Source: a virus (Duplodnaviria; Heunggongvirae; Uroviricota; Caudoviricetes). Taken from it: a DNA stretch of 15,390 nt. The stretch spans positions 98,586 through 113,975 of IMG/VR virus record IMGVR_UViG_3300032286_000363; one strand, written 5' to 3'. The position numbers and the translations under genes are program-made. This document shows, piece by piece, positions 1 to 14,009 of this stretch; within the stretch, counting starts at the first letter, position 1, and each line of letters begins with the position of its first letter. The notes beneath the pieces are model-generated. The model was not told the origin of the DNA. It worked only from the letters and a program-made list of their open reading frames with translations, and did not search any database.

Positions 1-845
1 GAACATTGACACAGAATATAAAGCCTATATATTAGGCTTTATTTATGCAGATGGATCAGTTTATCAACCACCTGGAAACAGACAGCTTAATTTTAGAATA
101 GGAGTTCAAGAAAGAGACTCTTATATTCTAGATCAGTTATCATTAGCTGCTGCAGGAGGACATAAACACACAGTTAAAACTCCATCTAGTATAAAGAAAG
201 GCTATCAGCCTCAAGTTTGTGTTAACATTAGCTCCAATGAACTATGTCAAGATTTAATAAATTTTGGATGTGGTGTTAGAAAGAGTAAAGAAGGAATGAA
301 ATTTCCTCAACTATCTCCTGAAATGGTTCCTCATTTTATTAGAGGATTTCTAGATGGTGATGGTAGTGTAATTCTTAAAAAACAAAGCTATAAATACAAA
401 AGAAAGACATCGTATAGTATTTCTAATCCTCATCAGGATAGGTTTAAACTTGTATTAGCATTTTCTTCAACAGATAAAGAGTTTCTGTTAGAGATAGCTA
501 AACATTTACAAGTAGAAAAGCCTTACATCACTGAAAAGGTTAGAACTATTATGAACTATATCCTTTGGATAGAAGTTAAAGCTGATGTTCAAAAAGCTAT
601 TATGTATTTATATGGTGATTGTAATTACTTCCTACAAAGAAAGTATAACAAAGTAATTGAATTTAACAAGACAATCAAAAGCGAAGCTACAGATACATCT
701 GTAGAACGTTTAGAGACTACCTGAGCAGTAAAGTCTGCTTAATAACAGGAAGTAGTATGGGTTAGTAACCATATGAAAAAGCGTCCAGCCCCTATTATAG
801 GGTGATGATATAGTCCATGCCTTAGGAAACTAAGGAGAAACCATG
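1..845 (+). mobile_element. Group I self-splicing intron (IA2-like), 3' portion; 5' end lies upstream of the window; interrupts rIIA
   Basis: Core pairings read directly: P6 GCG 681-683/CGU 707-709; P6a CUACAGA 687-693/UCUGUAG 698-704; P7 G-A(bulge)-GACUA 713-719/UAGUCC 811-816; P7.1 (CCUG 720-723/CAGG 746-749, AGCAG 724-728/CUGCU 735-739); P7.2 (UAUGG 756-760/CCAUA 769-773); P8 CCCUA 790-794/UAGGG 798-802; J8/7 AUGAUA 805-810; P9.0 AUG 817-819/CAU 842-844; P9 CCUUAG-GAAA-CUAAGG 820-835; terminal G at 845. The downstream exon resumes in frame with a conserved protein motif. Confidence 0.92.
2..724 (+). CDS. Intron-encoded double-motif LAGLIDADG homing endonuclease, 5'-partial
   Basis: Frame is open from base 2 through the track's ATG at 296. 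Motif 1 KAYILGFIYADGS (20-58); motif 2 HFIRGFLDGDGS shortly after 296. TGA stop at 722-724 lies within the ribozyme core. Confidence 0.9.
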   Translation, partial: NIDTEYKAYILGFIYADGSVYQPPGNRQLNFRIGVQERDSYILDQLSLAAAGGHKHTVKTPSSIKKGYQPQVCVNISSNELCQDLINFGCGVRKSKEGMKFPQLSPEMVPHFIRGFLDGDGSVILKKQSYKYKRKTSYSISNPHQDRFKLVLAFSSTDKEFLLEIAKHLQVEKPYITEKVRTIMNYILWIEVKADVQKAIMYLYGDCNYFLQRKYNKVIEFNKTIKSEATDTSVERLETT

Positions 846-2816
846 CTAGGTTTCAAGGCTCCTTTAGCTTACAGTTCTAGTTTCTATTTTGTATGTAGAA
901 AAGATGGAATAGAACGTAAGTATATGATGTATGAAGGAGAAGACACAAACACAATTGACTTGTTGTATGAAAAAGCTACAACAGAAGATAATGGTGTTAA
1001 GGTGATTGTTCCTGTAAACTATTATGACAGACACGATTTTAGAACAAAGATTAGAGAGCAATTGGCCTATTTTGAGAATGTATATTTTGATTGTGGCGAT
1101 CTTGTAGATAATAACTTTTCTATATTCAGGAATGAATTGTTTCAATTCTCTGAATTAGCTAGTGAATCTTATTTACATTTATGTTTAGATAATGTATACT
1201 ATCCTATTGATTTCCAGAAGCTTGGGATAGATTCTATTCAACTTCCTGTAGCTCTTAGATTTAGTCTTACAGATGGTCTTTTCCCAACTCCAAATAGAGA
1301 ATCTATCAGATATACCAAGGAAGGTAAAGAAATCATCCTTAAGAGAATCTCTGAACTTGCTGATTTCTTTGTAAATAAGTATAATGAGCAAGTGCAAGAT
1401 ACAGATGATATACATGCTATCATGGATTATTATTCTAATACAAATAGAAATGTAACTATTCTAAAATCTAAATATAATGCAGGACTTTTAGTAGAGTTTG
1501 CTACAATAAAATTTAACGAACCAAAGCTTAAGGATGTTAGCGTTCTTAACATGAAAAAACTTCATAGAGTTAGAGAATACATACTTGGTGAATTTGATGT
1601 TAAGTTTAGAATAGAGCGTGGTAAATGGAGAGAGTGTAAAAGTTATTGGGATGTTGATATACAAAGATATGGTCAATACAACAAAGTTAAAGACATTTAC
1701 ATTTATGATGAAAGAATCTCTGGAAACAAGAAAGACTATCTAAAGAGCATTGCTTCTCAAGCATGGAATGAGCAAACTCTACTTATCAGAAAAGGTAAAC
1801 CTTTTACACTTGGTTCTGTAAGAGGTGCTACTGACTATAAGACTTACATGGATATTCTAGATCTTAGGAACATTGATAAGTCTTTATGGAGAACTGCTAT
1901 TAAGGAGTTTCAATCTATTGTAAAGATGTACAATAAAGAATGGCAAGATCTTGATGCATTAGTGGTTCCTCAATCCTTTATAGACAGTAAGAAGAAAGTG
2001 AAGATTAGTGTTTCTGGAGGCACGCCTGGTGTAAGAAGACAAAAGCTTAAAGGTGAAATCGTTGGTAAAGAAGCTTCTCCATTAGAAAGAGATGTGTATG
2101 GTCAGAATTGTAAGTTTGTTCCTACAACATATGTTTTAGAGAACGCTCACAAACTACCATATCTACATGTTTATGGTTCTCAAGCTGATAAAGATGTGCT
2201 TGATCGTTTATATGGTGCATTTAATAAATGTCGTAAGAACATTAAGTTCATCATATTCTCTGAAAGAGAACTTAATAACTTAGAGAAAGTAGAATTACAC
2301 AACTGGATAAAACTTGATAAATTTATGAAAGGAGACAACAAACCATTTAAGAGAATAGTGACAGCTTATTTAGTAAAGAAGCTTTATGAGAAGAACAGAT
2401 CGGTGTTTCAAAGAAATCACCACATGTTATCAATTTCTGAAGATCTTTACAATAAAATTGTAATGCTTGGTAAATATCAAGATCTTTATCATCCTGGATA
2501 TATGTCTGCAGATACAGAAGCTATTATATTCAGTGAGCTTTTAGAAATAGCTGAAGCTAAAGATCTATTTGATGGTGAAGTCTATCCTATTTATCAAGAG
2601 GTTAAAGAGATTCTTGAGAAGTTCCCATTCATTGAGAATGTATTCAGTGTAATGAAAAGTTGGGGATGTGATGATCCTTTACAACAAGTTGTTATTGATC
2701 TTTTGAAGTATAACAGACATAGAGTTAATTTAAAGAATTACACTGTTAAACTTACAGAAGATGCTCCTTTAGAGCAAGAATTAACTGAAGATGTTGTAGA
2801 AACTCTACAAGATTAA
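846..2816 (+). CDS. rIIA: rIIA-like protein (GHKL/Hsp90-like ATPase N-terminus), exon 2; exon 1 is upstream of the window
   Basis: Begins LGFKAPLAYSSSF, matching the second half of the rIIA GxxG-LGxKxPxxY motif (T4 rIIA GGFGLGSKSPFSYTDTF, recalled from memory). Also NGVKVIVPV and PTPNRESI motifs. Lies directly upstream of a clear rIIB. Confidence 0.85.
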   Translation, partial: LGFKAPLAYSSSFYFVCRKDGIERKYMMYEGEDTNTIDLLYEKATTEDNGVKVIVPVNYYDRHDFRTKIREQLAYFENVYFDCGDLVDNNFSIFRNELFQFSELASESYLHLCLDNVYYPIDFQKLGIDSIQLPVALRFSLTDGLFPTPNRESIRYTKEGKEIILKRISELADFFVNKYNEQVQDTDDIHAIMDYYSNTNRNVTILKSKYNAGLLVEFATIKFNEPKLKDVSVLNMKKLHRVREYILGEFDVKFRIERGKWRECKSYWDVDIQRYGQYNKVKDIYIYDERISGNKKDYLKSIASQAWNEQTLLIRKGKPFTLGSVRGATDYKTYMDILDLRNIDKSLWRTAIKEFQSIVKMYNKEWQDLDALVVPQSFIDSKKKVKISVSGGTPGVRRQKLKGEIVGKEASPLERDVYGQNCKFVPTTYVLENAHKLPYLHVYGSQADKDVLDRLYGAFNKCRKNIKFIIFSERELNNLEKVELHNWIKLDKFMKGDNKPFKRIVTAYLVKKLYEKNRSVFQRNHHMLSISEDLYNKIVMLGKYQDLYHPGYMSADTEAIIFSELLEIAEAKDLFDGEVYPIYQEVKEILEKFPFIENVFSVMKSWGCDDPLQQVVIDLLKYNRHRVNLKNYTVKLTEDAPLEQELTEDVVETLQD

Positions 2817-2897: not shown

Positions 2898-4382
2898 ATG
2901 AGCAATTTTAGCATTGACTGGTTCAAACAAGAATTAGTAAAATTACAATTAGAAGAACAAAGACTTAAGAACGAAATGATGAGACTTGAGTTGGAAGAAA
3001 AACAAAAAGAGGTTGATGATTGTGACTGTGAGGATGGGTGGGAGATTGAGAATGATTTTGATGAGGAAGAAAATGATTACAAATGGGATGGTACTCAAAA
3101 CTTTAGTGATGAGCAAGAGTATGTTCCTTATTTTAAACCTTACATGCATCTTAAAATGGTTAATGATGTATTGACTATTGTGTTACACGATGGTCAAATC
3201 ATCAGCAAACCAAATGCTACACAAGATGATTTCAAAGCAGCACAGAATGCTAGCAATGAAGCAGACTTATTCACTCTTGTTATGTCTCAAGAAGTTAGAG
3301 AAGACAAGATGAAAAGAGATGCTGAAGTGAGCAGAATGAAAGCTATCCAAAAAGGATTGGATGAGCTTTCAAACTTTAATGATTTTGTTGTAGATGGTTA
3401 CACTGTATATCTTAAAGGTATCAGTAGAAGTCTTCCACAAATCATTGTAGAAGAGTTCTTAACAATCATTGGTGCTTATTCTAACATGGGAATATCTAAT
3501 GATGAGATAGAGAAATCACTACCGTATAATGAAAGCTATCAAGGTCTTAAAAGATTCTTTATGTGGTGTTGCTTAAATCCAAGAGCAGAAGTTGCACATG
3601 AGTTGTACAGATTCTTGAAAGAGAATTCCTTCAGAATAACAAAACAAGGTTTCTTTGTTGCTCTTAGGAATGTTGTAAGCTTATGTGATGATACAGCCCT
3701 TGTAGATTTTGTAAGCAATTCTTACAACAAGATTAAGGCTATCTGGAAGAAAGATCCTTCTCAAAAGAATGTATGGAAAGATTCTAACGATTTCTATTTC
3801 TTACAAGATCTTGAATTTGAAGGAGCTTCAAATGTATCCTTAGTAGGTAACCTTACAGCTTTATATTTGGAACTTCCTCAAATGAAGAATAACCGTTATA
3901 CAGATGCATGGACTAAAACATTTGACATTCGTGTAGGTGTTCCTGTAAACATGCCTATGAGTGATTGTAACTGGAGTACACAAGATTGTGCTGCTGCAGG
4001 ATTACATTTCACAGCTGATCATATCAACTATGTAGGATGTGGTGATACATCTATGTTGATTCTTATTAACCCAATGAAGGTTGTTGGTATTGGTGAATAC
4101 AAAGGTCGTTGTTATGAATATCTTCCATTGATGACTGTTCCTACAGAAGAGTCTACAACCATCCTTCACGATCTTAACTTTGATACATTGGAATTAGATG
4201 ATCAATATGCTGTTCGCGAATTGGAATCATTGGTTGAAAGAACACAAGCAGGATTTGTAGCAGAATCTCGTAAGTATGATTTTAACATTCCTAACATTTC
4301 TATTGCAGAGATAAAAGGAATTACAGCATCTCTTGAAGAAATGTATTCAGAAATTGCAGATAGAATCAAAAACATCGATTAA
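2898..4382 (+). CDS. rIIB: rIIB-like protein
   Basis: C-terminal half carries rIIB-type motifs: ELYRFLKENSFRITKQGFFVALRNV, YTDAWTKTF, VNMP, C..GLH, INPMKVV, RCYEY. Follows rIIA. Confidence 0.85.
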   Translation: MSNFSIDWFKQELVKLQLEEQRLKNEMMRLELEEKQKEVDDCDCEDGWEIENDFDEEENDYKWDGTQNFSDEQEYVPYFKPYMHLKMVNDVLTIVLHDGQIISKPNATQDDFKAAQNASNEADLFTLVMSQEVREDKMKRDAEVSRMKAIQKGLDELSNFNDFVVDGYTVYLKGISRSLPQIIVEEFLTIIGAYSNMGISNDEIEKSLPYNESYQGLKRFFMWCCLNPRAEVAHELYRFLKENSFRITKQGFFVALRNVVSLCDDTALVDFVSNSYNKIKAIWKKDPSQKNVWKDSNDFYFLQDLEFEGASNVSLVGNLTALYLELPQMKNNRYTDAWTKTFDIRVGVPVNMPMSDCNWSTQDCAAAGLHFTADHINYVGCGDTSMLILINPMKVVGIGEYKGRCYEYLPLMTVPTEESTTILHDLNFDTLELDDQYAVRELESLVERTQAGFVAESRKYDFNIPNISIAEIKGITASLEEMYSEIADRIKNID

Positions 4383-4389
4383 TTAAAAT

Positions 4390-4425
4390 AATATACCCCA
4401 TTTATGTCTATATTTGGGGTATATT
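4390..4425 (+). terminator. 11-bp hairpin after rIIB, overlapping a -7 promoter box (TATATTTG 4409-4416)
   Basis: AATATACCCCA 4390-4400 is the exact reverse complement of TGGGGTATATT 4415-4425; T-rich tail follows. Confidence 0.6.
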
Positions 4426-4433
4426 TTATTATT

Positions 4434-4841
4434 ATGACTACAAAAAGAAAAAAGGCTGTTGCTAAACCTAAAACCTTAAAGACTAGAAATGCAGGCACAC
4501 TAACAGAGAGTGCTTTCTGGAGCTTTATTAGAAGTGGACTAAGACAAAAGAGTAGATTTTGGAAACCTATTACACAATGTAAGATGGCTAACAGAAGAAC
4601 TTACAAAGGACCTCTCAAGAGGCAGAAGTTTGAATATCAGTGTAACGAATGTAAACAATGGTTTCCTGACAAGGAGATCAATGTTGACCACAAGATCCCA
4701 GTGGGGGCTCTTAATTGTTCAGCTGATTTAGCTGGTTTTGTTGAACGTTTGTTTTGTGAAGAAGAAAATCTTCAGTGTTTGTGCTCAAACTGTCATGATG
4801 TTAAGACTAAAAAGGAAAAAGAATTACGTAAAAAAAGTTAA
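4434..4841 (+). CDS. Zn-binding HNH endonuclease-family protein
   Basis: CNEC...NVDHKIP...NLQCLCSNCHDVKT. ATG 4434 is preferred over 4404, which lies inside the hairpin loop. Confidence 0.8.
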   Translation: MTTKRKKAVAKPKTLKTRNAGTLTESAFWSFIRSGLRQKSRFWKPITQCKMANRRTYKGPLKRQKFEYQCNECKQWFPDKEINVDHKIPVGALNCSADLAGFVERLFCEEENLQCLCSNCHDVKTKKEKELRKKS

Positions 4842-4848
4842 TCATATA

Positions 4849-4880
4849 TTTGGAAATGTGATAAATATGGTCTACTTTTA
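4849..4880 (+). promoter_or_regulatory. Bacteroidota-type promoter for the GIY-YIG gene
   Basis: TTTG 4849-4852, 20-nt spacer, TACTTTTA 4873-4880, 18 nt before ATG 4899. Confidence 0.5.
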
Positions 4881-4898
4881 TATTATAAACTCTATAGT

Positions 4899-5513
4899 AT
4901 GTTTTATCTTTATCAACATGTCAGATTAGACACTAACCAAGTATTTTATATTGGAATATCACGTTATAATAAACAGTATAAGTATAAAAGAGCAGCTCAA
5001 AAAGATAAAAGAAACTCTATTTGGAAAAATATTGTTTCTAAAACTAATTTTATATATGAAATTCTTTTAGAATCTAATGATATAAATGTTATAAAATCTA
5101 AAGAGATTGAACTAATAGCTTATTATGGTAAAATAAAATACAAAACAGGATGTCTAGCTAATATTACAGATGGTGGTGAAGGTACCTTTGGGTATATACC
5201 AAGTAAAGAAATCAGATTAAAACATTCAGAAAATATGAAAGGAAGAAAACATAGTGAAGAAACTAAGTTAAAAATGAAAAATGCTCAGTTAGGTAAAATT
5301 GTTCCAGCAGAAGTAGGTAAAAAAATAAGTAAATCTAAAAAAGGTAAAAGTGTAGGTAAATTACATGAAAATAAACCTTTAAAAGTTTTACATATACCAA
5401 CTAACATGGAATTTAAATCTATAACAAAAGCAGCTCAATATTTTAATTTAAGGAGATGTACTCTTGCTATAAATATTCATTCTGGAAAAGAAAAAGATTT
5501 TAAAATTGTCTAG
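4899..5513 (+). CDS. Free-standing GIY-YIG homing endonuclease with NUMOD3 and C-terminal NUMOD1-like DNA-binding modules
   Basis: FYLYQH...FYIG, conserved R, KEIELIAYYG, LANITDGGEG; HSEETKLKMK (NUMOD3); EFKSITKAAQYF (NUMOD1/IENR1-like). Visibly more AT-rich than its neighbours. Confidence 0.85.
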   Translation: MFYLYQHVRLDTNQVFYIGISRYNKQYKYKRAAQKDKRNSIWKNIVSKTNFIYEILLESNDINVIKSKEIELIAYYGKIKYKTGCLANITDGGEGTFGYIPSKEIRLKHSENMKGRKHSEETKLKMKNAQLGKIVPAEVGKKISKSKKGKSVGKLHENKPLKVLHIPTNMEFKSITKAAQYFNLRRCTLAINIHSGKEKDFKIV

Positions 5514-8290: not shown

Positions 8291-11080
8291 ATGGATTTAG
8301 GATTACAAGCTCTATCTGACATAACTGTGTACAGCAAGTATGCAAAGTTTATTCCAGAGAAGAAGAGAAGAGAAACTTGGGATGAAATAGTTGATCGTTA
8401 TCAGAATATGATGATCAAGAAATACCCCACCCTTGAGGAAGCAATTATTAAAAGTGCTGAACTCATTAGACAGAAGAAGGTCCTTCCTTCTATGAGAGCA
8501 TTACAGTTTGCTGGTCCTGCTGCAGAAGTGAACAATGCAAGAATATACAATTGCTGTTTTCTTCCTATAGATAGCTTACATAGCTTTAGTGAGACCATGT
8601 TCTTGCTATTAGGAGGAACAGGTGTTGGATATTCTGTACAGAAACATCATGTTGCACAACTTCCAGCTATTACAAAACCTGGTAAGAAAAAGACCTATCT
8701 AATTGAGGATTCTATTATGGGCTGGGCTGATGCTGTAAAGGTGTTGTTCAAAGCTTATATGGAAGGTAAGTTTATGCCTTCATTTGATTTCAGAGCTATT
8801 AGACAGAAAGGTGCTAGATTGATTACAGCAGGTGGTAAAGCTCCTGGTCCTGAACCATTAAAACTTTGTCTCACACATGTACAAGCTATTTTAGACAGAA
8901 AACAGGAAGGAGAACACCTATCTCCTATAGAAGCACATGATATATTGTGTCATATTGCTAACAGTGTGTTAGCAGGTGGTATTAGAAGAAGTGCTATGAT
9001 TGCATTGTTTAGCCTTGATGATGAAGAAATGATTACATGTAAGTATGGTAATTGGTGGGAAATAAATGAACAACGTGGTAGAGCTAATAACTCTGCTGTT
9101 CTTGAGAGAGGAAATGTTACAGAAACAGAATTCTTTTCTCTTTGGAAGAGAATAGAAGCTTCTGGATCTGGAGAACCTGGTATCTACTGGACTAACAATA
9201 AAGATTGGGGAACTAACCCTTGTTGTTTTATTGGAAGTACATTAGTAGCAACTGCTGATGGGCGTAATGCTGTAACAATTAAACAATTGTGTGATGAAGG
9301 ATACCAGGGACCTGTATATTCTATGCAAGCTCAAACTGGACAAGTGGTAACTTCTTACTGTTCAAAAGTTTGGAAAAGTAGAGAAAATGCAGAACTTGTT
9401 AAAGTTATTCTTGATGATGGTAGCAGTTTTACATGTACTCCTGATCACAGAATAATGCTCAGAAATGGACAATATGTTCAAGCTCAACAACTTGTAGAAG
9501 GAACATCATTGATGCCTTTCAATTCTTACAAAAGAAGTGATAGGAATTATAGAATGATTCAATCTAACACAGGTAGAGACATTGCTCAATATGCCCATGT
9601 TGCTCAGTATTATGACATCATTAAGGAAGGATATGACTCTCAGCACATCCATCATAAAGATGGAAATGGATTAAATGACCTACCTGAGAATTTAGAAGCT
9701 ATAGACGCATTAGAACACAATAGACAACATATGTTAGGAGCAAATAATGCTTTTCATAAAATGTCTTATGAAACACGTGGGCAATGGTCAGAAAAACAAT
9801 CATCTCGTCAAAAAGGAGAACACAATACTAACAGTAATGGTTTAACTACAGAAGAGATGATAATGCGTTGTTTTGAAAGAACAGTTCAAAAAAGAGCTAA
9901 ATTATCTTACCAAGAAGTGTTAGACAGCTGTGGTGTAAAATTTCTTTCTAAAGGAAGACTTAAAGAAATGAAAGCTGAAACCGTTGGAGAATTTGCTGAA
10001 AATCTAGCAGAGTTAGCAAATCATAAAGTGGTTTCTGTAGAATTTCTAAAAAGAAGAGAAGATGTTTATGATATGACTGTAGAAGGCACTCATAATTTTG
10101 CAATTATCACTTCCTCTAAAGATGATAATTTTATTACTTCTTCAGGAGTGTTTGTACATAATTGTGAAATAGGACTTAGACCATTCCAATTCTGTAACTT
10201 ATGCGAGATAAATGTAGATGATGTTGTGAATCAACTAGATCTTAATGATCGTGTAGCTGTATCAGCATTCTTTGGTACATTACAAGCAGGATTTACAGAC
10301 TTCCATTACTTACGTCCTATATGGAAACAAACTACAGACAAGGATGCTTTATTAGGAATAGGAATGACAGGTATTGGTTCAGGAAAGATTCTTGATGCAG
10401 ATCTTGAAATAGCAGCTAACACAGCTAAGGTGGTGAATTCTACAATATCAGCTATAATAGGAACTAATGAAGCAGCTCGTATAACATGTATTAAACCTTC
10501 TGGTACAACATCTTGTGTATTAGGAACTGCTAGTGGTATTCATGCTTGGCATGCTCCATATTATTTAAGAACTGTACGTTTTAACAAGAATGAAGACATA
10601 GCAATGTTTATGGAAGTGAATCATCCTGAACTATGTGAAGATGATGTACTTAGACCAAAAGATACATTGTGTGTAAGAATTCCTATTAAAGCACCTGAAG
10701 GTTCTATATTCAGAACAGAAACAGCTATTGATACATTAGAACGTGTTAAGAAGTTTGCTACAGAATGGGTCACACCAGGACATATTAATGGTGATAATAC
10801 ACATAATGTAAGTGCTACAATTTCTATTAAAGCTGATGAATGGGAATCTGTAGGAGAATGGATGTGGAATTTTAGAGAATCATACAATGGTCTTTCTGTA
10901 CTACCATATTTTGGAGGCTCATACAAACAAGCTCCTTTTGAGGACATTATAGAAGAAGAATATAATTCTAGAATAGGTCATTTAAAATCCTTAGATTTGA
11001 CAAAAGTTATGGAGATAGATGATAATGTAGAATTTGGTCAGATAGCAAGTTGTGCAGGTGGTGCATGTGCTGTAGAATAA
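8291..11080 (+). CDS. nrdJ: Class II (adenosylcobalamin-dependent) ribonucleotide reductase, monomeric RTPR-like, intein-containing precursor (929 aa; 616 aa after splicing)
   Basis: LPSMRAL, YNCCF, LLLGGTGVG, GGIRRSA, GEPG, reconstituted TNPCCEI active-site loop, FCNLCEIN, KPSGT, C-terminal SCAGGAC redox pair. No ATP-cone is evident at the N-terminus. Confidence 0.9.
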   Translation: MDLGLQALSDITVYSKYAKFIPEKKRRETWDEIVDRYQNMMIKKYPTLEEAIIKSAELIRQKKVLPSMRALQFAGPAAEVNNARIYNCCFLPIDSLHSFSETMFLLLGGTGVGYSVQKHHVAQLPAITKPGKKKTYLIEDSIMGWADAVKVLFKAYMEGKFMPSFDFRAIRQKGARLITAGGKAPGPEPLKLCLTHVQAILDRKQEGEHLSPIEAHDILCHIANSVLAGGIRRSAMIALFSLDDEEMITCKYGNWWEINEQRGRANNSAVLERGNVTETEFFSLWKRIEASGSGEPGIYWTNNKDWGTNPCCFIGSTLVATADGRNAVTIKQLCDEGYQGPVYSMQAQTGQVVTSYCSKVWKSRENAELVKVILDDGSSFTCTPDHRIMLRNGQYVQAQQLVEGTSLMPFNSYKRSDRNYRMIQSNTGRDIAQYAHVAQYYDIIKEGYDSQHIHHKDGNGLNDLPENLEAIDALEHNRQHMLGANNAFHKMSYETRGQWSEKQSSRQKGEHNTNSNGLTTEEMIMRCFERTVQKRAKLSYQEVLDSCGVKFLSKGRLKEMKAETVGEFAENLAELANHKVVSVEFLKRREDVYDMTVEGTHNFAIITSSKDDNFITSSGVFVHNCEIGLRPFQFCNLCEINVDDVVNQLDLNDRVAVSAFFGTLQAGFTDFHYLRPIWKQTTDKDALLGIGMTGIGSGKILDADLEIAANTAKVVNSTISAIIGTNEAARITCIKPSGTTSCVLGTASGIHAWHAPYYLRTVRFNKNEDIAMFMEVNHPELCEDDVLRPKDTLCVRIPIKAPEGSIFRTETAIDTLERVKKFATEWVTPGHINGDNTHNVSATISIKADEWESVGEWMWNFRESYNGLSVLPYFGGSYKQAPFEDIIEEEYNSRIGHLKSLDLTKVMEIDDNVEFGQIASCAGGACAVE
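9224..10162 (+). mobile_element. Intein (313 aa, precursor residues 312-624) with HNH endonuclease domain
   Basis: Block A CFIGSTLV, block B TCTPDH, block F EDVYDMTVEGTHNF, block G VFVHN followed by Cys+1; central HIHHKDGNGLNDLPENL HNH motif. Confidence 0.93.
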
Positions 11081-11204: not shown

Positions 11205-12230
11205 ATGGCGAAAGCAAAAGAAGCTCCAGAGAGCAAAGGTAAATTTCAAGATGCACTTGATAAGCTAAATAAAGCTTATGGTGTAGGTACTGTTCTTACA
11301 TTAGATAGTAAGACAACTGGTGATTATGATCTTATCAGCACAGGAAGTGTTGGGTTTGATCATATTACATTGGGAACAGGTGGATTTGTAAAAGGTAAGA
11401 TGTATGAACTTATGGGATGGGAAGGTTCAGGTAAATCAACAATTTGTGGTCATGCTGTAGCAGAATGCCAAAAGAAAGGTGGTGTTGTTCTGTATATAGA
11501 TGGTGAACATGCTGTTGATAAGAATTATTTTGAAGCTCTTGGTGTTGATACCACCAAGATGTTAATTGCTCAACCATCATGTGGTGAGGAAGGTTTTAAC
11601 ATTGCTATGGAAATGATTGAAACAGGAACCATTGATCTTATTATCATAGATTCAGATTCTTCTTTAATTCCTAAGAAAGTGTTAGATGGTGAGGTGGGTG
11701 ATTCTTCTATTGGTAAGAAAGCCCTGCTTAATTCAAATGCCTATCCAAAGCTTAAAGGTGCTTTGTCACAACACAATGTTTGTGTTATTGTTATTTCTCA
11801 GTATAGAGAAAAGATAGGTGTTATGTTTGGTAATCCCACCACAACACAGGGAGGACATGCTCTTAAGTTTTATTCAGATGTTCGTATAGAAGTTTCCAAG
11901 AGTCTTGCTAAAGAAGGAGATCAAACTTATGGTAATATCACCAAGGTGAAAGCAATTAAGAACAAGATGAGTCCTCCATATAGACTATCTAGTTTTGAAA
12001 TCATCTATGGTCAGGGTATTGATAAGATTGGAGAACTAATGGAATTGATTAACGAGTTTGAGATAGGTAGAAAGTATGGTAAGACAATGACCATTAATGA
12101 AGTTAAATACGATCTTGAAGATTTCAAAAGAATGTTAATGGACAATGAAGAGTTCTATAATGACATTGTAAAACAAATTTTAAACAAAATTAATAACGTA
12201 AAAATTGAAGAAAATGCAAGTGAAATTTAA
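11205..12230 (+). CDS. recA: RecA-family recombinase
   Basis: Walker A GWEGSGKST, IDGEHA, Walker B IIIDS, QYREKIGVMFGNP, GGHALKFY, KAIKNK. Confidence 0.95.
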   Translation: MAKAKEAPESKGKFQDALDKLNKAYGVGTVLTLDSKTTGDYDLISTGSVGFDHITLGTGGFVKGKMYELMGWEGSGKSTICGHAVAECQKKGGVVLYIDGEHAVDKNYFEALGVDTTKMLIAQPSCGEEGFNIAMEMIETGTIDLIIIDSDSSLIPKKVLDGEVGDSSIGKKALLNSNAYPKLKGALSQHNVCVIVISQYREKIGVMFGNPTTTQGGHALKFYSDVRIEVSKSLAKEGDQTYGNITKVKAIKNKMSPPYRLSSFEIIYGQGIDKIGELMELINEFEIGRKYGKTMTINEVKYDLEDFKRMLMDNEEFYNDIVKQILNKINNVKIEENASEI

Positions 12231-12940: not shown

Positions 12941-13620
12941 GAATATTGCACATTAGTGATAGTCATGGTTACCATGAGATGTTTCCTATGGAGAGATTTA
13001 AAGATGTAGATGTTGTTGTACACTCTGGTGATTGTTCCAATTATAAAGACCATATTAGGAATGAACAAGAAGTTAGAGCTTTCATAGGTTGGTATAAAGA
13101 TGTTCCTGTTAAACATAAAATTTATGTAGCAGGTAATCATGATACATCTATAGAACGTAACAGAGTGACACCAGCAGATTTTCATTCTGAAGGAATCACC
13201 TATCTTGAGAATGCAGCTACCACCATAGATGGTGTTAAGTTTTGGGGAAGTCCTTACACTCCTACATTTGGTCAATGGGCTTTTATGAAAAGTAGAGAAA
13301 CTATTGGTAGAGCGTGGAAACATATTCCTATAGATGTAGATGTTCTTATAACCCATGGTCCTCCTAAAGGTGTAAGAGATCTTTCACACGATAGAGATGG
13401 AATGCTTGAATTCTGTGGAGACAGTGCTCTTATGAAAGCTGTATGGGGATTAAAACCTAAAGTGATGTTGTTTGGACACATACATGATTCTCCAGGATGT
13501 GATAACCAAGGAATCTCTCATTATTCAAAAACACCAACAATCTTTTCTAACGCTTCATGTGTACATGATGGAAGATTTGATCTAGGACTTACATCATTTG
13601 GAAATATAATTGAAATATGA
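12937..13620 (+). CDS. Calcineurin-like metallophosphoesterase
   Basis: HISDSHG, HSGDCSN, AGNHD, THGPP, FGHIH metal-binding motifs. Confidence 0.9.
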   Translation: MRILHISDSHGYHEMFPMERFKDVDVVVHSGDCSNYKDHIRNEQEVRAFIGWYKDVPVKHKIYVAGNHDTSIERNRVTPADFHSEGITYLENAATTIDGVKFWGSPYTPTFGQWAFMKSRETIGRAWKHIPIDVDVLITHGPPKGVRDLSHDRDGMLEFCGDSALMKAVWGLKPKVMLFGHIHDSPGCDNQGISHYSKTPTIFSNASCVHDGRFDLGLTSFGNIIEI

Positions 13621-14009
13621 AATGTAAAACATGTGGAAAGAACGCTGAAAGTGAATACTGCTTTCAGCACAAACCAAGAAAGGCCCTTAAAAATGTAAAA
13701 TTTTCAGCTATTAAACGGAAAACTTCCGATGATTCAGCACAAATTTTACAAATGCAAGAGTTCTTCCTTGATATATGGAGAAAGAGAAAAGAACACAATT
13801 GTGAAAACTGTAAGAAGTGGCTTGGTAGTGAGCCACTTTCTTATATGTTTGATCATCTTCTTGAGAAAAGTAAATACCCTGATCTCAAACTTAAAGAAGA
13901 AAATATAATGTTAGTGTGTTTAGAATGTCACGATCTTAAAACAAGAGGTTTTGTAACTGATTTTGTTAGAGATAAAATAGAAGAAGTTAGGAACAAGTTT
14001 GATAAATAG
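13617..14009 (+). CDS. Zn-finger/HNH-fold nuclease-like protein (NinG-like)
   Basis: N-terminal CKTC..YCFQH; CENC...FDHLLEK...ENIMLVCLECHDLKT. Confidence 0.65.
   Translation: MKCKTCGKNAESEYCFQHKPRKALKNVKFSAIKRKTSDDSAQILQMQEFFLDIWRKRKEHNCENCKKWLGSEPLSYMFDHLLEKSKYPDLKLKEENIMLVCLECHDLKTRGFVTDFVRDKIEEVRNKFDK

What the first reader, a model, noticed from the sequence alone, without database searches (positions are those of the whole stretch)
672..870. Group I intron inserted in the ATP-binding motif of phage rIIA
Seen: a complete 3' ribozyme half (P6, P6a, P7 with a G713-C816 closing pair, P7.1, P7.2, P8, P9.0, GAAA-capped P9) ending at G845, with the next codons reading LGFKAPLAY. Established: rIIA has a GHKL ATPase N-terminus with a GxxGLGxK motif, and group I 5' exons end in U. 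Inference: exon 1 ends in a Gly codon GGU, and splicing restores G-x-x-G|LGFK. The phage group I introns I know are mostly in td, nrd, pol, recA, lysin, terminase or tail genes. I do not recall rIIA as a host, so this may be an undescribed insertion site; novelty is unverified.
Basis: partly seen in the sequence, partly recalled or inferred. Interest (0 to 1): 0.82.

Follow-up and report, generated by a model that had tools for sequence, protein, structure and literature searches.

The report
Mobile self-splicing intron splitting phage rIIA
The rIIA gene of an uncultured freshwater phage is interrupted, inside its ATP-binding glycine motif, by a mobile group I intron carrying a homing-endonuclease gene; this is a well-supported new example of a well-known selfish element in a host gene that the searched literature does not describe.

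Summary
Confirmed. Window 1-845 is the 3' part of a 992-nt group I intron that begins 146 nt upstream of the window and splits rIIA inside the GHKL ATPase G2 box.

- **Junction:** Exon 1 (121 codons, upstream) ends GGA AUG AUG GGU. Exon 2 starts at 846 with CUA GGU UUC AAG. The join gives a 777-aa protein identical across the junction to intronless homologues (ELGMMG|LGFKAPLAY).
- **Ribozyme:** The U-G pair at the 5' site, terminal G845, the P1/P10 guide and P2-P9 are all present. In 11 same-site relatives, 19 of 81 pairs show compensatory changes and 99% of cells pair, against 30-49% in slid controls.
- **Endonuclease:** The LAGLIDADG gene lies in loop L5. Its last ~20 codons are read from the ribozyme core.
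- **Mobility:** The intron is 94% identical between phages whose rIIA exon 2 is only 52-67% identical. 71 of 80 related loci lack any intron.
- **Rfam:** The model scores it below threshold (30.4 bits, cut-off 50), which I attribute to the ORF.
- **Hot spot:** Other introns hit the same motif 1 nt downstream and 5 nt upstream, the latter in a GenBank crAss-like phage.

I found no paper on rIIA introns. Earlier follow-ups of this scan found rIIA introns on other DNA. Splicing itself is untested. This is a new member of a known kind.

The parts
1..845 (+). 3' 845 nt of a 992-nt group I intron. The intron begins 146 nt upstream of the window, at L002 4854 = G000:C1:98439. Upstream of the window lie rIIA exon 1 (L002 4491-4853), P1 (L002 4849-4854/4865-4870), P2 (4871-4878/4883-4890) and the 5' strands of P3 (4899-4905), P4 (4909-4914) and P5 (4918-4925).
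1..724 (+). Double-motif LAGLIDADG homing-endonuclease ORF of 253 codons. The likely start is the AUG at L002 4963, 37 nt upstream of the window; the stop is UGA at 722-724. It lies in loop L5. Its last ~20 codons (660-724) are read from P5', P4', P6, P6a, P7 and P7.1.
   Evidence: Pfam LAGLIDADG_3 and LAGLIDADG_1 above cut-off, phrog_4645 at 7.8e-33. The ATG GG start is conserved in all copies, while the upstream in-frame ATG loses frame in relatives.
660..680 (+). 3' strands of P5 (660-665, 670-671) and P4 (675-680), with J5/4 CAA at 672-674
   Evidence: Long-range pairing with L002 4909-4925. P5 is rebuilt with a different sequence in the L086-type copy.
681..709 (+). P6 (681-683/707-709) and P6a hairpin (687-693/698-704, loop UACA)
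   Evidence: Compensatory changes in P6 (L089) and P6a
713..719 (+). P7 5' strand GAGACUA (A714 bulged), preceded by J6/7
   Evidence: Matches the RF00028 consensus GUUCAaAGACUA. Pairs with 811-816 and is invariant in all copies.
720..774 (+). P7.1 (720-723/746-749), P7.1a (724-728/735-739) and P7.2 (755-760/769-774). These lie between P7 and P3', the subgroup IA arrangement.
   Evidence: 79.5% identical to the cr116_1 rIIA intron over 126 nt.
782..788 (+). P3 3' strand CGUCCAG, pairing with CUGGAUG at L002 4899-4905
   Evidence: Two compensatory pairs: C-G to U-A, and G-C to C-G in L085. Recovered by unconstrained folding.
790..816 (+). P8 (790-794/798-802), J8/7 (803-810) and P7 3' strand UAGUCC (811-816)
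   Evidence: UGAUGAUAUAGUCC matches the RF00028 consensus UgAAGAUAUAGUCu
817..845 (+). P9.0 (817-819/842-844), P9 (820-825/830-835, GAAA loop) and terminal G845 (3' splice site after 845)
   Evidence: Five of six P9 pairs are compensatory. P9.0 changes U-A to C-G in L045.
846..2816 (+). rIIA exon 2 (656 codons plus stop). Its first four bases, CUAG, pair with the internal guide CUAG (L002 4862-4865) as P10.
   Evidence: phrog_612 RIIA match starting at profile position 117. Collinear with intronless homologues. P10 covaries: CUAG/CUAG against CUGAG/CUCGG in L085 and L089.
2898..4382 (+). rIIB homologue (context: the rIIA-rIIB gene pair)
   Evidence: phrog_609 RIIB at 9.4e-14

Best explanation
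This is a mobile group I intron of subgroup IA type, 992 nt long, inserted in the rIIA gene of an uncultured ~114-kb freshwater phage. The insertion lies between the fourth and fifth codons of the GHKL ATPase G2 box, GMMG|LG.

Proposed mechanism (inferred, not shown):
- On the pre-mRNA the internal guide sequence pairs with the end of exon 1 (UGGGU, with a U-G wobble at the cut) to form P1. It pairs with the first four bases of exon 2 (CUAG) to form P10.
- The folded core (P3-P8, P4-P6, P7 with its guanosine pocket) catalyses the two transesterifications.
- The exons join as ...AUG AUG GGU|CUA GGU UUC..., and a full-length 777-aa rIIA is translated.

The intron carries a double-motif LAGLIDADG homing-endonuclease gene in loop L5. 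That ORF runs into the ribozyme core and stops at a UGA in P7.1. By inference, the enzyme cuts intronless rIIA alleles at the conserved G2-box coding sequence during mixed infection. Repair from the intron-bearing genome would then copy the intron in (homing).

Shown here: the anatomy, covariation, exon collinearity, patchy distribution, and much higher similarity of intron than of exons. Inferred: catalysis of splicing and cleavage by the endonuclease.
For: - **Exon 1:** It lies upstream with a HATPase_c match and ends in GGU, followed by an in-frame stop in the intron.
- **Junction:** The joined protein is 777 aa and matches intronless homologues across the junction. P0004 is also 777 aa and 93% identical over exon 2.
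- **Motif:** It aligns with the Topo VI-B G2 box / ATP lid.
- **Structure:** 81 base pairs, 19 compensatory, 99.2% paired against 30-49% in slid controls. These include long-range P3, P5 and P10. The mini-intron MFE recovers the helices, z = -5.7.
- **Rfam:** RF00028 aligns to the 3' half, E 1.4e-5. Related introns in the same motif pass the Rfam threshold: L054 at 95.9 bits and cr116_1 at 80.8 bits.
- **Mobility:** L002 and L045 introns are 94.4% identical, while exon 1 is 81% and exon 2 is 52-67% identical. The closest relative, L004, is intronless. 71 of 80 related loci are intronless. Intronless alleles vary freely at synonymous sites of the junction, whereas every intron-bearing allele has GGT|CT(A/C)GG.
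- **Endonuclease ORF:** It is intact in all copies and 69-94% identical.
Against: - No splicing was observed. The window's copy does not reach the Rfam gathering score (30.4 against 50 bits), and the 5' part alone gives no RF00028 hit.
- P4 is an A/U run, and unconstrained folding prefers an alternative A-run partner. The P4 assignment rests on position and on comparison with the L054 and cr116_1 introns.
- In this copy and in L045, a Shine-Dalgarno-like AAGGAG and an AUG/GUG sit just before exon 2. Translation of exon 2 without splicing therefore cannot be excluded.
Confidence: 0.9

Rival explanations
1. The gene is split without splicing. The intervening DNA would only be a homing-endonuclease insertion. 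rIIA would be made as two polypeptides: a 124-aa N-terminal piece ending at the in-frame UAG, and a 657-aa piece started at AUG 843. These would assemble non-covalently.
For: - An in-frame stop lies 9 nt after the exon 1 end.
- AAGGAG at 832-837 followed by AUG 843 makes a good ribosome-binding site in frame with exon 2.
- Gene callers list both pieces as separate proteins (631-657-aa homologues without the ATPase domain).
Against: - Most same-site copies end ...AACCG|CUA and have no start codon or AAGGAG before exon 2.
- The break falls inside the GxxGxG loop.
- The RNA helices are kept by 19 compensatory pairs, including P1/P10 contacts with both exons. That pattern is only expected if the RNA must fold and splice.
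Confidence: 0.04
2. The ribozyme is no longer splicing-competent and rIIA is a pseudogene in this phage.
For: Sub-threshold Rfam score. rIIA is dispensable in phage T4 on most hosts (from my own knowledge, not tested here).
Against: - Both exons are open and under strong constraint: 100% amino-acid identity to intronless P0004 over exon 1 and across the junction.
- Only one broken cell falls in the core helices, and the catalytic-core strands (P7, J8/7) are invariant.
- The endonuclease ORF is intact.
- The low Rfam score can be explained by the 730-nt insertion in L5. The 3' half still aligns well.
Confidence: 0.04
3. Splicing occurs but is not autonomous. It would need the intron's own LAGLIDADG protein acting as a maturase, or a host factor, as in some fungal mitochondrial introns.
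For: - The endonuclease ORF overlaps the core by about 60 nt, so protein and RNA are co-adapted.
- P4, P5 and P6 are short and A/U-rich.
Against: - The same ribozyme scaffold works with a different, non-LAGLIDADG nuclease ORF in L5 (L086 type).
- A related intron in the same motif has no ORF at all (L054). A dedicated maturase is therefore unlikely to be required.
Confidence: 0.1

Closest known systems
Phage T4 td, nrdB and nrdD (sunY) group IA2 introns with I-TevI/II/III (recalled from established knowledge)
   Same: These are phage group I introns with P7.1/P7.2 extensions. They carry a homing-endonuclease ORF looped out of a peripheral helix, insert in sequence coding for a conserved catalytic motif, and have a patchy distribution among relatives.
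   Different: - The host gene here is rIIA, not a nucleotide-metabolism gene.
- The endonuclease here is a double-motif LAGLIDADG enzyme rather than GIY-YIG or an HNH relative.
- The ORF sits in L5 and overlaps P5'-P7.1.
Split rIIA-like gene of crAss-like phage cr116_1 (GenBank MT774389, Pamirivirus faecium)
   Same: - Same gene and same G2-box motif.
- RF00028 scores 80.8 bits.
- The P7-P7.2 region is 79.5% identical to the window's over 126 nt.
- The LAGLIDADG ORF belongs to the same PHROG (phrog_4645).

   Different: - The insertion site is 5 nt upstream in the motif (GGU GGG U|UU GGC).
- The ORF lies in the P1 loop rather than L5.
- The P3-P6 half is of a different type.
- The record annotates three separate CDS and no intron.
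Group I introns of marine Vibrio phages (for example 184E37.3a, annotated Intron_gpI in the ribonucleotide reductase gene) and the related core next to the DNA polymerase gene of Pseudoalteromonas phage PH357
   Same: 71-77% nucleotide identity over P4'-P7' (window 668-821). They appear to belong to the same ribozyme lineage.
   Different: They sit in or next to the classical host genes (RNR, DNA polymerase), not rIIA.
Same-motif introns in IMG/VR rIIA genes (L054 ORF-less; L094 with GIY-YIG; L086 type with another nuclease)
   Same: They share the same target motif. The L086 type has the same ribozyme and the same site.
   Different: - L054 and L094 are inserted 1 nt downstream (GGG U|UG, GGG U|UA) and have a different P3-P6 half.
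- Their endonuclease content differs.

Membership tests
Group I intron (Rfam RF00028) | Conserved core: P3-P8 and P4-P6 domains with the P7 pseudoknot, plus the J6/7, J8/7 and P7 consensus sequences | tested here: met
   All helices were found. 81 pairs are 99.2% kept, with 19 compensatory. The J6/7-P7 and J8/7-P7' strings match the model consensus.
Group I intron (Rfam RF00028) | Score at or above the curated gathering threshold (50 bits) | tested here: not met
   30.4 bits. In the model's alignment the 5' half is placed inside the ORF, because the true 5' half lies ~730 nt away across L5. Relatives with contiguous cores score 95.9 and 80.8 bits.
Group I intron (Rfam RF00028) | 5' exon ends in U paired with G in P1; intron ends in G; the internal guide also pairs with the 3' exon (P10) | tested here: met
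   U4853-G4866 in P1, G845 terminal, P10 CUAG/CUAG. P10 covaries with the exon in L085 and L089.
Group I intron (Rfam RF00028) | Removal restores an uninterrupted reading frame collinear with intronless alleles | tested here: met
   The 777-aa product is identical across the junction to P0004 and 12 other intronless homologues. 71 intronless loci were found.
Group I intron (Rfam RF00028) | Guanosine-dependent self-splicing | not testable with these tools
   The RNA contigs laid on the locus gave no informative junction.
Subgroup IA (IA2-like) | Extra helices P7.1 and P7.2 between P7 and the 3' strand of P3 | tested here: met
   720-749 and 755-774 lie between P7 (713-719) and P3' (782-788). 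No subgroup-specific model (GISSD) was available, so the IA2 label itself is an inference.
LAGLIDADG homing endonuclease (double motif) | Two LAGLIDADG helices, each with its acidic residue, in one chain | tested here: met
   ILGFIYADGSV and FIRGFLDGDGSV. PF14528 scores 31.4 bits (cut-off 22.5) and PF00961 scores 30 bits (cut-off 23.1). phrog_4645 at 7.8e-33.
LAGLIDADG homing endonuclease (double motif) | Site-specific cleavage of the intronless allele | not testable with these tools
   Only indirect support: the intron is far more similar than the exons between phages, and the distribution is patchy.
Phage rIIA | N-terminal GHKL ATPase domain, long variable C-terminal part, and an adjacent rIIB gene | tested here: met
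   - HATPase_c in exon 1.
- phrog_612 RIIA at 2.1e-24.
- tblastn matches to the rIIA genes of RB16, RB43 and Lw1 at ~30% identity.
- rIIB homologue at 2898-4382.

The most novel reading that the evidence does not exclude
The coding sequence of the rIIA G2 box is a cross-lineage landing pad. Self-splicing introns occupy three positions within 6 nt (-5, 0, +1) in freshwater phages and crAss-like gut phages.

One ribozyme scaffold has also exchanged its endonuclease cargo. Nuclease ORFs of three kinds (LAGLIDADG, GIY-YIG and a third type) run into the P4'-P7 core, read in the same frame, and stop at the same UGA in P7.1, so they share a ribozyme-encoded C-terminal tail.

The untested novel reading is that this shared read-through is functional. 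Ribosomes translating the endonuclease would unfold the core. Endonuclease synthesis and rIIA splicing would then be mutually exclusive, which would time expression of rIIA, a gene linked to protection from abortive infection.
Probability: 0.2. Interest if true: 0.6.

Novelty: new member of a known kind. Interest (0 to 1): 0.42.

Why it matters
Phage group I introns are best known from nucleotide-metabolism and DNA-replication genes, and the reason for that bias is an old open question. rIIA is an ATPase tied to protection from prophage-mediated exclusion, so it widens the list of host genes.

It also fits the rule that introns and their endonucleases target the most invariant coding sequence available. 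Here that sequence is LGMMGLGFKA, which is nearly invariant in 71 alleles.

In practice, gene callers and the Rfam model both miss this intron. rIIA is therefore mis-annotated as two or three genes in public records, for example MT774389. The family offers a natural series (ORF-less, and three nuclease types in related scaffolds) for studying endonuclease exchange.

Tried and rejected
- **Rfam at gathering threshold:** The window gave no hit. The 3.2-kb stretch holding the whole intron gave no hit at E <= 1. Same-site relatives L045, L060 and L076 and the IAS virus locus gave no hit. I put the missed same-site copies down to the long L5 insertion.
- **Rfam on the 5' 100 nt alone:** No RF00028 hit. 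This is expected, because P3, P4 and P5 have their partners ~800 nt downstream.
- **Megablast against GenBank phages:** No match for the first 3 kb of the window. The phage lineage has no close cultured relative.
- **RNA evidence:** Four metatranscriptome runs, held only as contigs, were laid on L002 4400-6400.
  - One contig joins exon 1 to exon 2, but it reads GGC CUU at the junction and differs at about 10% of positions. It comes from a relative, probably one with an intronless allele, and says nothing about splicing here.
  - One contig covers the intron 3' part into exon 2. That could be unspliced RNA or DNA carry-over.
  - No verdict on splicing can be drawn.
- **Yutin et al. 2021 (PMC7886860):** I checked whether the 'ATP_43b' intron host in crAss-like phages is rIIA. 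The paper defines it as an AAA-domain ATPase, so it is not.
- **HEG start codon:** I considered the upstream in-frame AUG inside P3 (L002 4903). I rejected it because relatives carry two 1-nt deletions between it and the conserved AUG GGA.
Full report
**Where the window lies.** The window is the last 15.4 kb of a 113,975-bp viral contig with direct terminal repeats, rated complete. I fetched 5 kb upstream as L002, so window position = L002 position minus 5000. DNA runs holding the stretch come mostly from freshwater, lake and sediment metagenomes. Related contigs are 105-118 kb. No close relative exists among GenBank phages.

**The observation.**
- P4' 675-680
- P6 681-683/707-709
- P6a 687-704
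- P7 713, 715-719 paired with 811-816 (A714 bulged)
- P7.1/P7.1a 720-749
- P7.2 755-774
- P3' 782-788
- P8 790-802
- J8/7 803-810
- P9.0 817-819/842-844
- P9 820-835 with a GAAA loop
- terminal G845

RF00028 aligns to 610-836 with 30.4 bits. That is E 1.4e-5 for a 1.2-kb search and E 3.2e-7 for the whole genome. It is under the 50-bit gathering score, so a default Rfam scan reports nothing. In that alignment J6/7-P7 (GUUUAGAGACUA), J8/7-P7' (UGAUGAUAUAGUCC) and P9 fit the consensus well. The model's 5' half is forced onto unrelated ORF sequence.

**The upstream half.**
- An ORF at L002 4491-4865 reads an rIIA N-terminus. It matches Pfam HATPase_c at 29.9 bits against a cut-off of 26.4.
- It runs ...N-T-E-L-G-M-M-G and then Q-Q-N-stop. 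The Gly codon GGU ends at L002 4853.
- P1 follows: UGGGU|C pairs with G-GCCCG (L002 4849-4854/4865-4870), with the canonical U-G wobble at the cut.
- The loop of P1 holds CUAG (4862-4865), which is complementary to the first four bases of exon 2 (CUAG, window 846-849). This forms P10.
- Next come P2 (8 bp with a GUAA loop), then the P3 5' strand CUGGAUG, J3/4 AAU, the P4 5' strand UUUUGG, J4/5 AAA and the P5 5' strand.
- Each of these strands has its partner in the window: P3' 782-788, P4' 675-680, P5' 660-671.
- The intron is therefore L002 4854-5845, 992 nt.

**The junction.** Joining L002 4853 to window 846 gives a 777-aa protein. In a MAFFT alignment with 13 intronless homologues it is gap-free and identical across the junction (...KRNSNTELGMMG|LGFKAPLAYSSSFYF...). 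The closest, P0004, is also 777 aa and 93% identical over exon 2. Exon 2 alone matches the PHROG rIIA profile only from profile position 117 onward, as expected for a protein missing its first ~120 residues.

The motif is the GHKL G2 box / ATP lid. It aligns with RGQQGIGISAAVLY and RGMYGLGVKAAVLY of topoisomerase VI-B structures. An rIIB homologue follows at 2898-4382. T4-like rIIA genes are the nearest named relatives, at ~30% identity.

**Comparative support.**
- Of 80 related rIIA loci in IMG/VR, 71 have exon 1 and exon 2 contiguous. Seven have a ~993-995-nt insertion at exactly GGT|CTA. One has a 365-nt insertion, and one is truncated.
- A 43-nt pattern from P7-P7.1 found 13 contigs, all with the match inside an rIIA gene. 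Nine of them were new.
- Eleven distinct same-site copies were aligned. For the 81 base pairs of the hand-drawn structure, 99.2% of cells are standard pairs and 19 pairs show changes on both sides.
- The compensatory pairs fall in P2 (4), P3 (2), P5 (3), P6 (1), P6a (2), P7.1a (1), P9 (5) and P10 (1). When the 3' partner is slid by 1-3 columns, 30-49% of cells pair and 0-4 pairs are compensatory.
- The P10 change is telling. Copies whose exon 2 begins CUCGG have CUGAG in the guide, in place of CUAG/CUAG.
- A mini-intron with L5 replaced by GAAA folds without constraints into P1, P2, the long-range P3, P5, P6, P6a, P7.1, P7.1a, P7.2, P8 and P9, at -80.8 kcal/mol and z = -5.7.
- Only P4, an A/U run, is drawn differently by that fold. 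Its assignment rests on position and on comparison with GCUG/CAGC in the L054 and cr116_1 introns.

**The endonuclease.**
- The ORF ending at window 724 is a double-motif LAGLIDADG enzyme, supported by Pfam LAGLIDADG_3 and LAGLIDADG_1 and by phrog_4645.
- The conserved start is AUG GGA UAC at L002 4963, giving 253 codons. An upstream in-frame AUG inside P3 is out of frame in relatives.
- The ORF fills loop L5. Its last ~20 codons are read from P5', P4', P6, P6a, J6/7 and P7, and it stops at UGA in the 5' strand of P7.1.
- It is intact in all copies, at 69-94% identity.

**Mobility.**
- The L002 and L045 introns are 94.4% identical, yet their exon 1 is 81% identical and their exon 2 is 52-67% identical.
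- The window's nearest relative, L004 (exons 76-88% identical), has no intron.
- Intronless alleles use many synonymous codons at the junction: 50 different 30-mers in 71 loci, with an almost invariant LGMMGLGFKA. Every intron-bearing allele has GGT|CT(A/C)GG.
- These features are the classical signatures of homing with co-conversion, or of selection for P1/P10 pairing. Cleavage itself is inferred.

**A hot spot.**
- L054 carries an unrelated-looking, ORF-less 365-nt intron that scores 95.9 bits on RF00028. It is inserted 1 nt downstream (GGG U|UG GGA). Its guide UCCCA-GCCCCAU pairs with both exons.
- L094 is an rIIA only 34% identical to the window's. It has an intron at that same +1 position, with a GIY-YIG ORF.
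[quoted passage not shown] RF00028 scores 80.8 bits there.
- In cr116_1 the guide AUGCCAA-GCUCAC fixes the splice sites at GGU GGG U|UU GGC, 5 nt upstream in the motif. Its P7-P7.2 region is 79.5% identical to the window's.
- L086, L091 and L097 have the window's ribozyme at the window's site, but a different nuclease ORF in L5 (phrog_9084 and phrog_7140, no LAGLIDADG match). That ORF ends with the same core-encoded tail as the LAGLIDADG ORFs.
- Related ribozyme cores in cultured marine phages lie in the ribonucleotide reductase gene and next to the DNA polymerase gene.

**What is not shown.** Splicing was not observed. Metatranscriptome contigs were uninformative.

In this copy and in L045, the 3' strand of P9 plus the following bases read AAGGAG-N5-AUG/GUG, in frame with exon 2. 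Separate translation of exon 2 from unspliced RNA is therefore conceivable. Most copies lack this feature.

**Novelty.** Five full-text searches found no paper describing an intron in rIIA. The crAss paper that reports many introns names MCP, PolB, primase and an AAA ATPase as hosts, not rIIA.

Earlier follow-ups of this scan had already noted rIIA introns on other DNA, including a crAss-like phage. My results agree with them.

The element is a new member of a known kind. It is solidly supported, mildly surprising in its host gene, and useful as an annotation warning.

Noticed in passing
L002 4060-4494 (upstream of the window; G000:C1:97645-98079): A free-standing NUMOD4 + HNH_3 endonuclease gene sits directly before rIIA. 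It begins with the 18 nt that start rIIA in relatives (ATGATTTTAGAAAAACAA = MILEKQ). rIIA itself restarts with a synonymously recoded copy (ATGATACTCGAAAAGCAA), overlapping the HNH stop as ATGA. The same arrangement, with the HNH 96% identical, occurs in L007 and L014. Other relatives lack it. It looks like a homing-endonuclease gene inserted after codon 6 of rIIA, with the target site recoded.
   Followed up: partly
window 832-845: The 3' strand of P9 and the following bases read AAGGAG-AAACC-AUG, in frame with exon 2. This is why gene callers report a 657-aa ORF from 843. L045 has GUG at the same place. The other same-site introns have neither the AAGGAG nor a start codon.
   Followed up: partly
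L086 11872-12663 (-), also L091 and L097: The ribozyme and the rIIA insertion site are the same as in the window. Loop L5 holds a different 264-aa nuclease ORF: a Cys-rich N-terminus, with phrog_9084 'homing endonuclease' and phrog_7140 'intron encoded nuclease' matches. It ends with the same ribozyme-encoded tail (...IKSEAEDTSSERLETT) as the LAGLIDADG ORFs. This is an apparent exchange of endonuclease cargo within one intron scaffold.
   Followed up: partly
window 4404-4841, 4899-5513, 13617-14009, and within 8291-11080: The window is dense in homing-endonuclease genes.
   Followed up: no
window 11205-12230: A UvsX-like recombinase ORF of 341 aa matches only positions 1-269 of a 506-position PHROG profile. 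Its C-terminal part matches a different family (phrog_9666). I did not check whether this gene is also interrupted or fused.
   Followed up: no
L084 (IAS virus, KJ003983.1): This crAss-like relative also has an rIIA-like match starting at the LGFK-equivalent residue. No RF00028 hit appears at gathering threshold in the 5.5-kb locus. I did not resolve whether it is split.
   Followed up: partly
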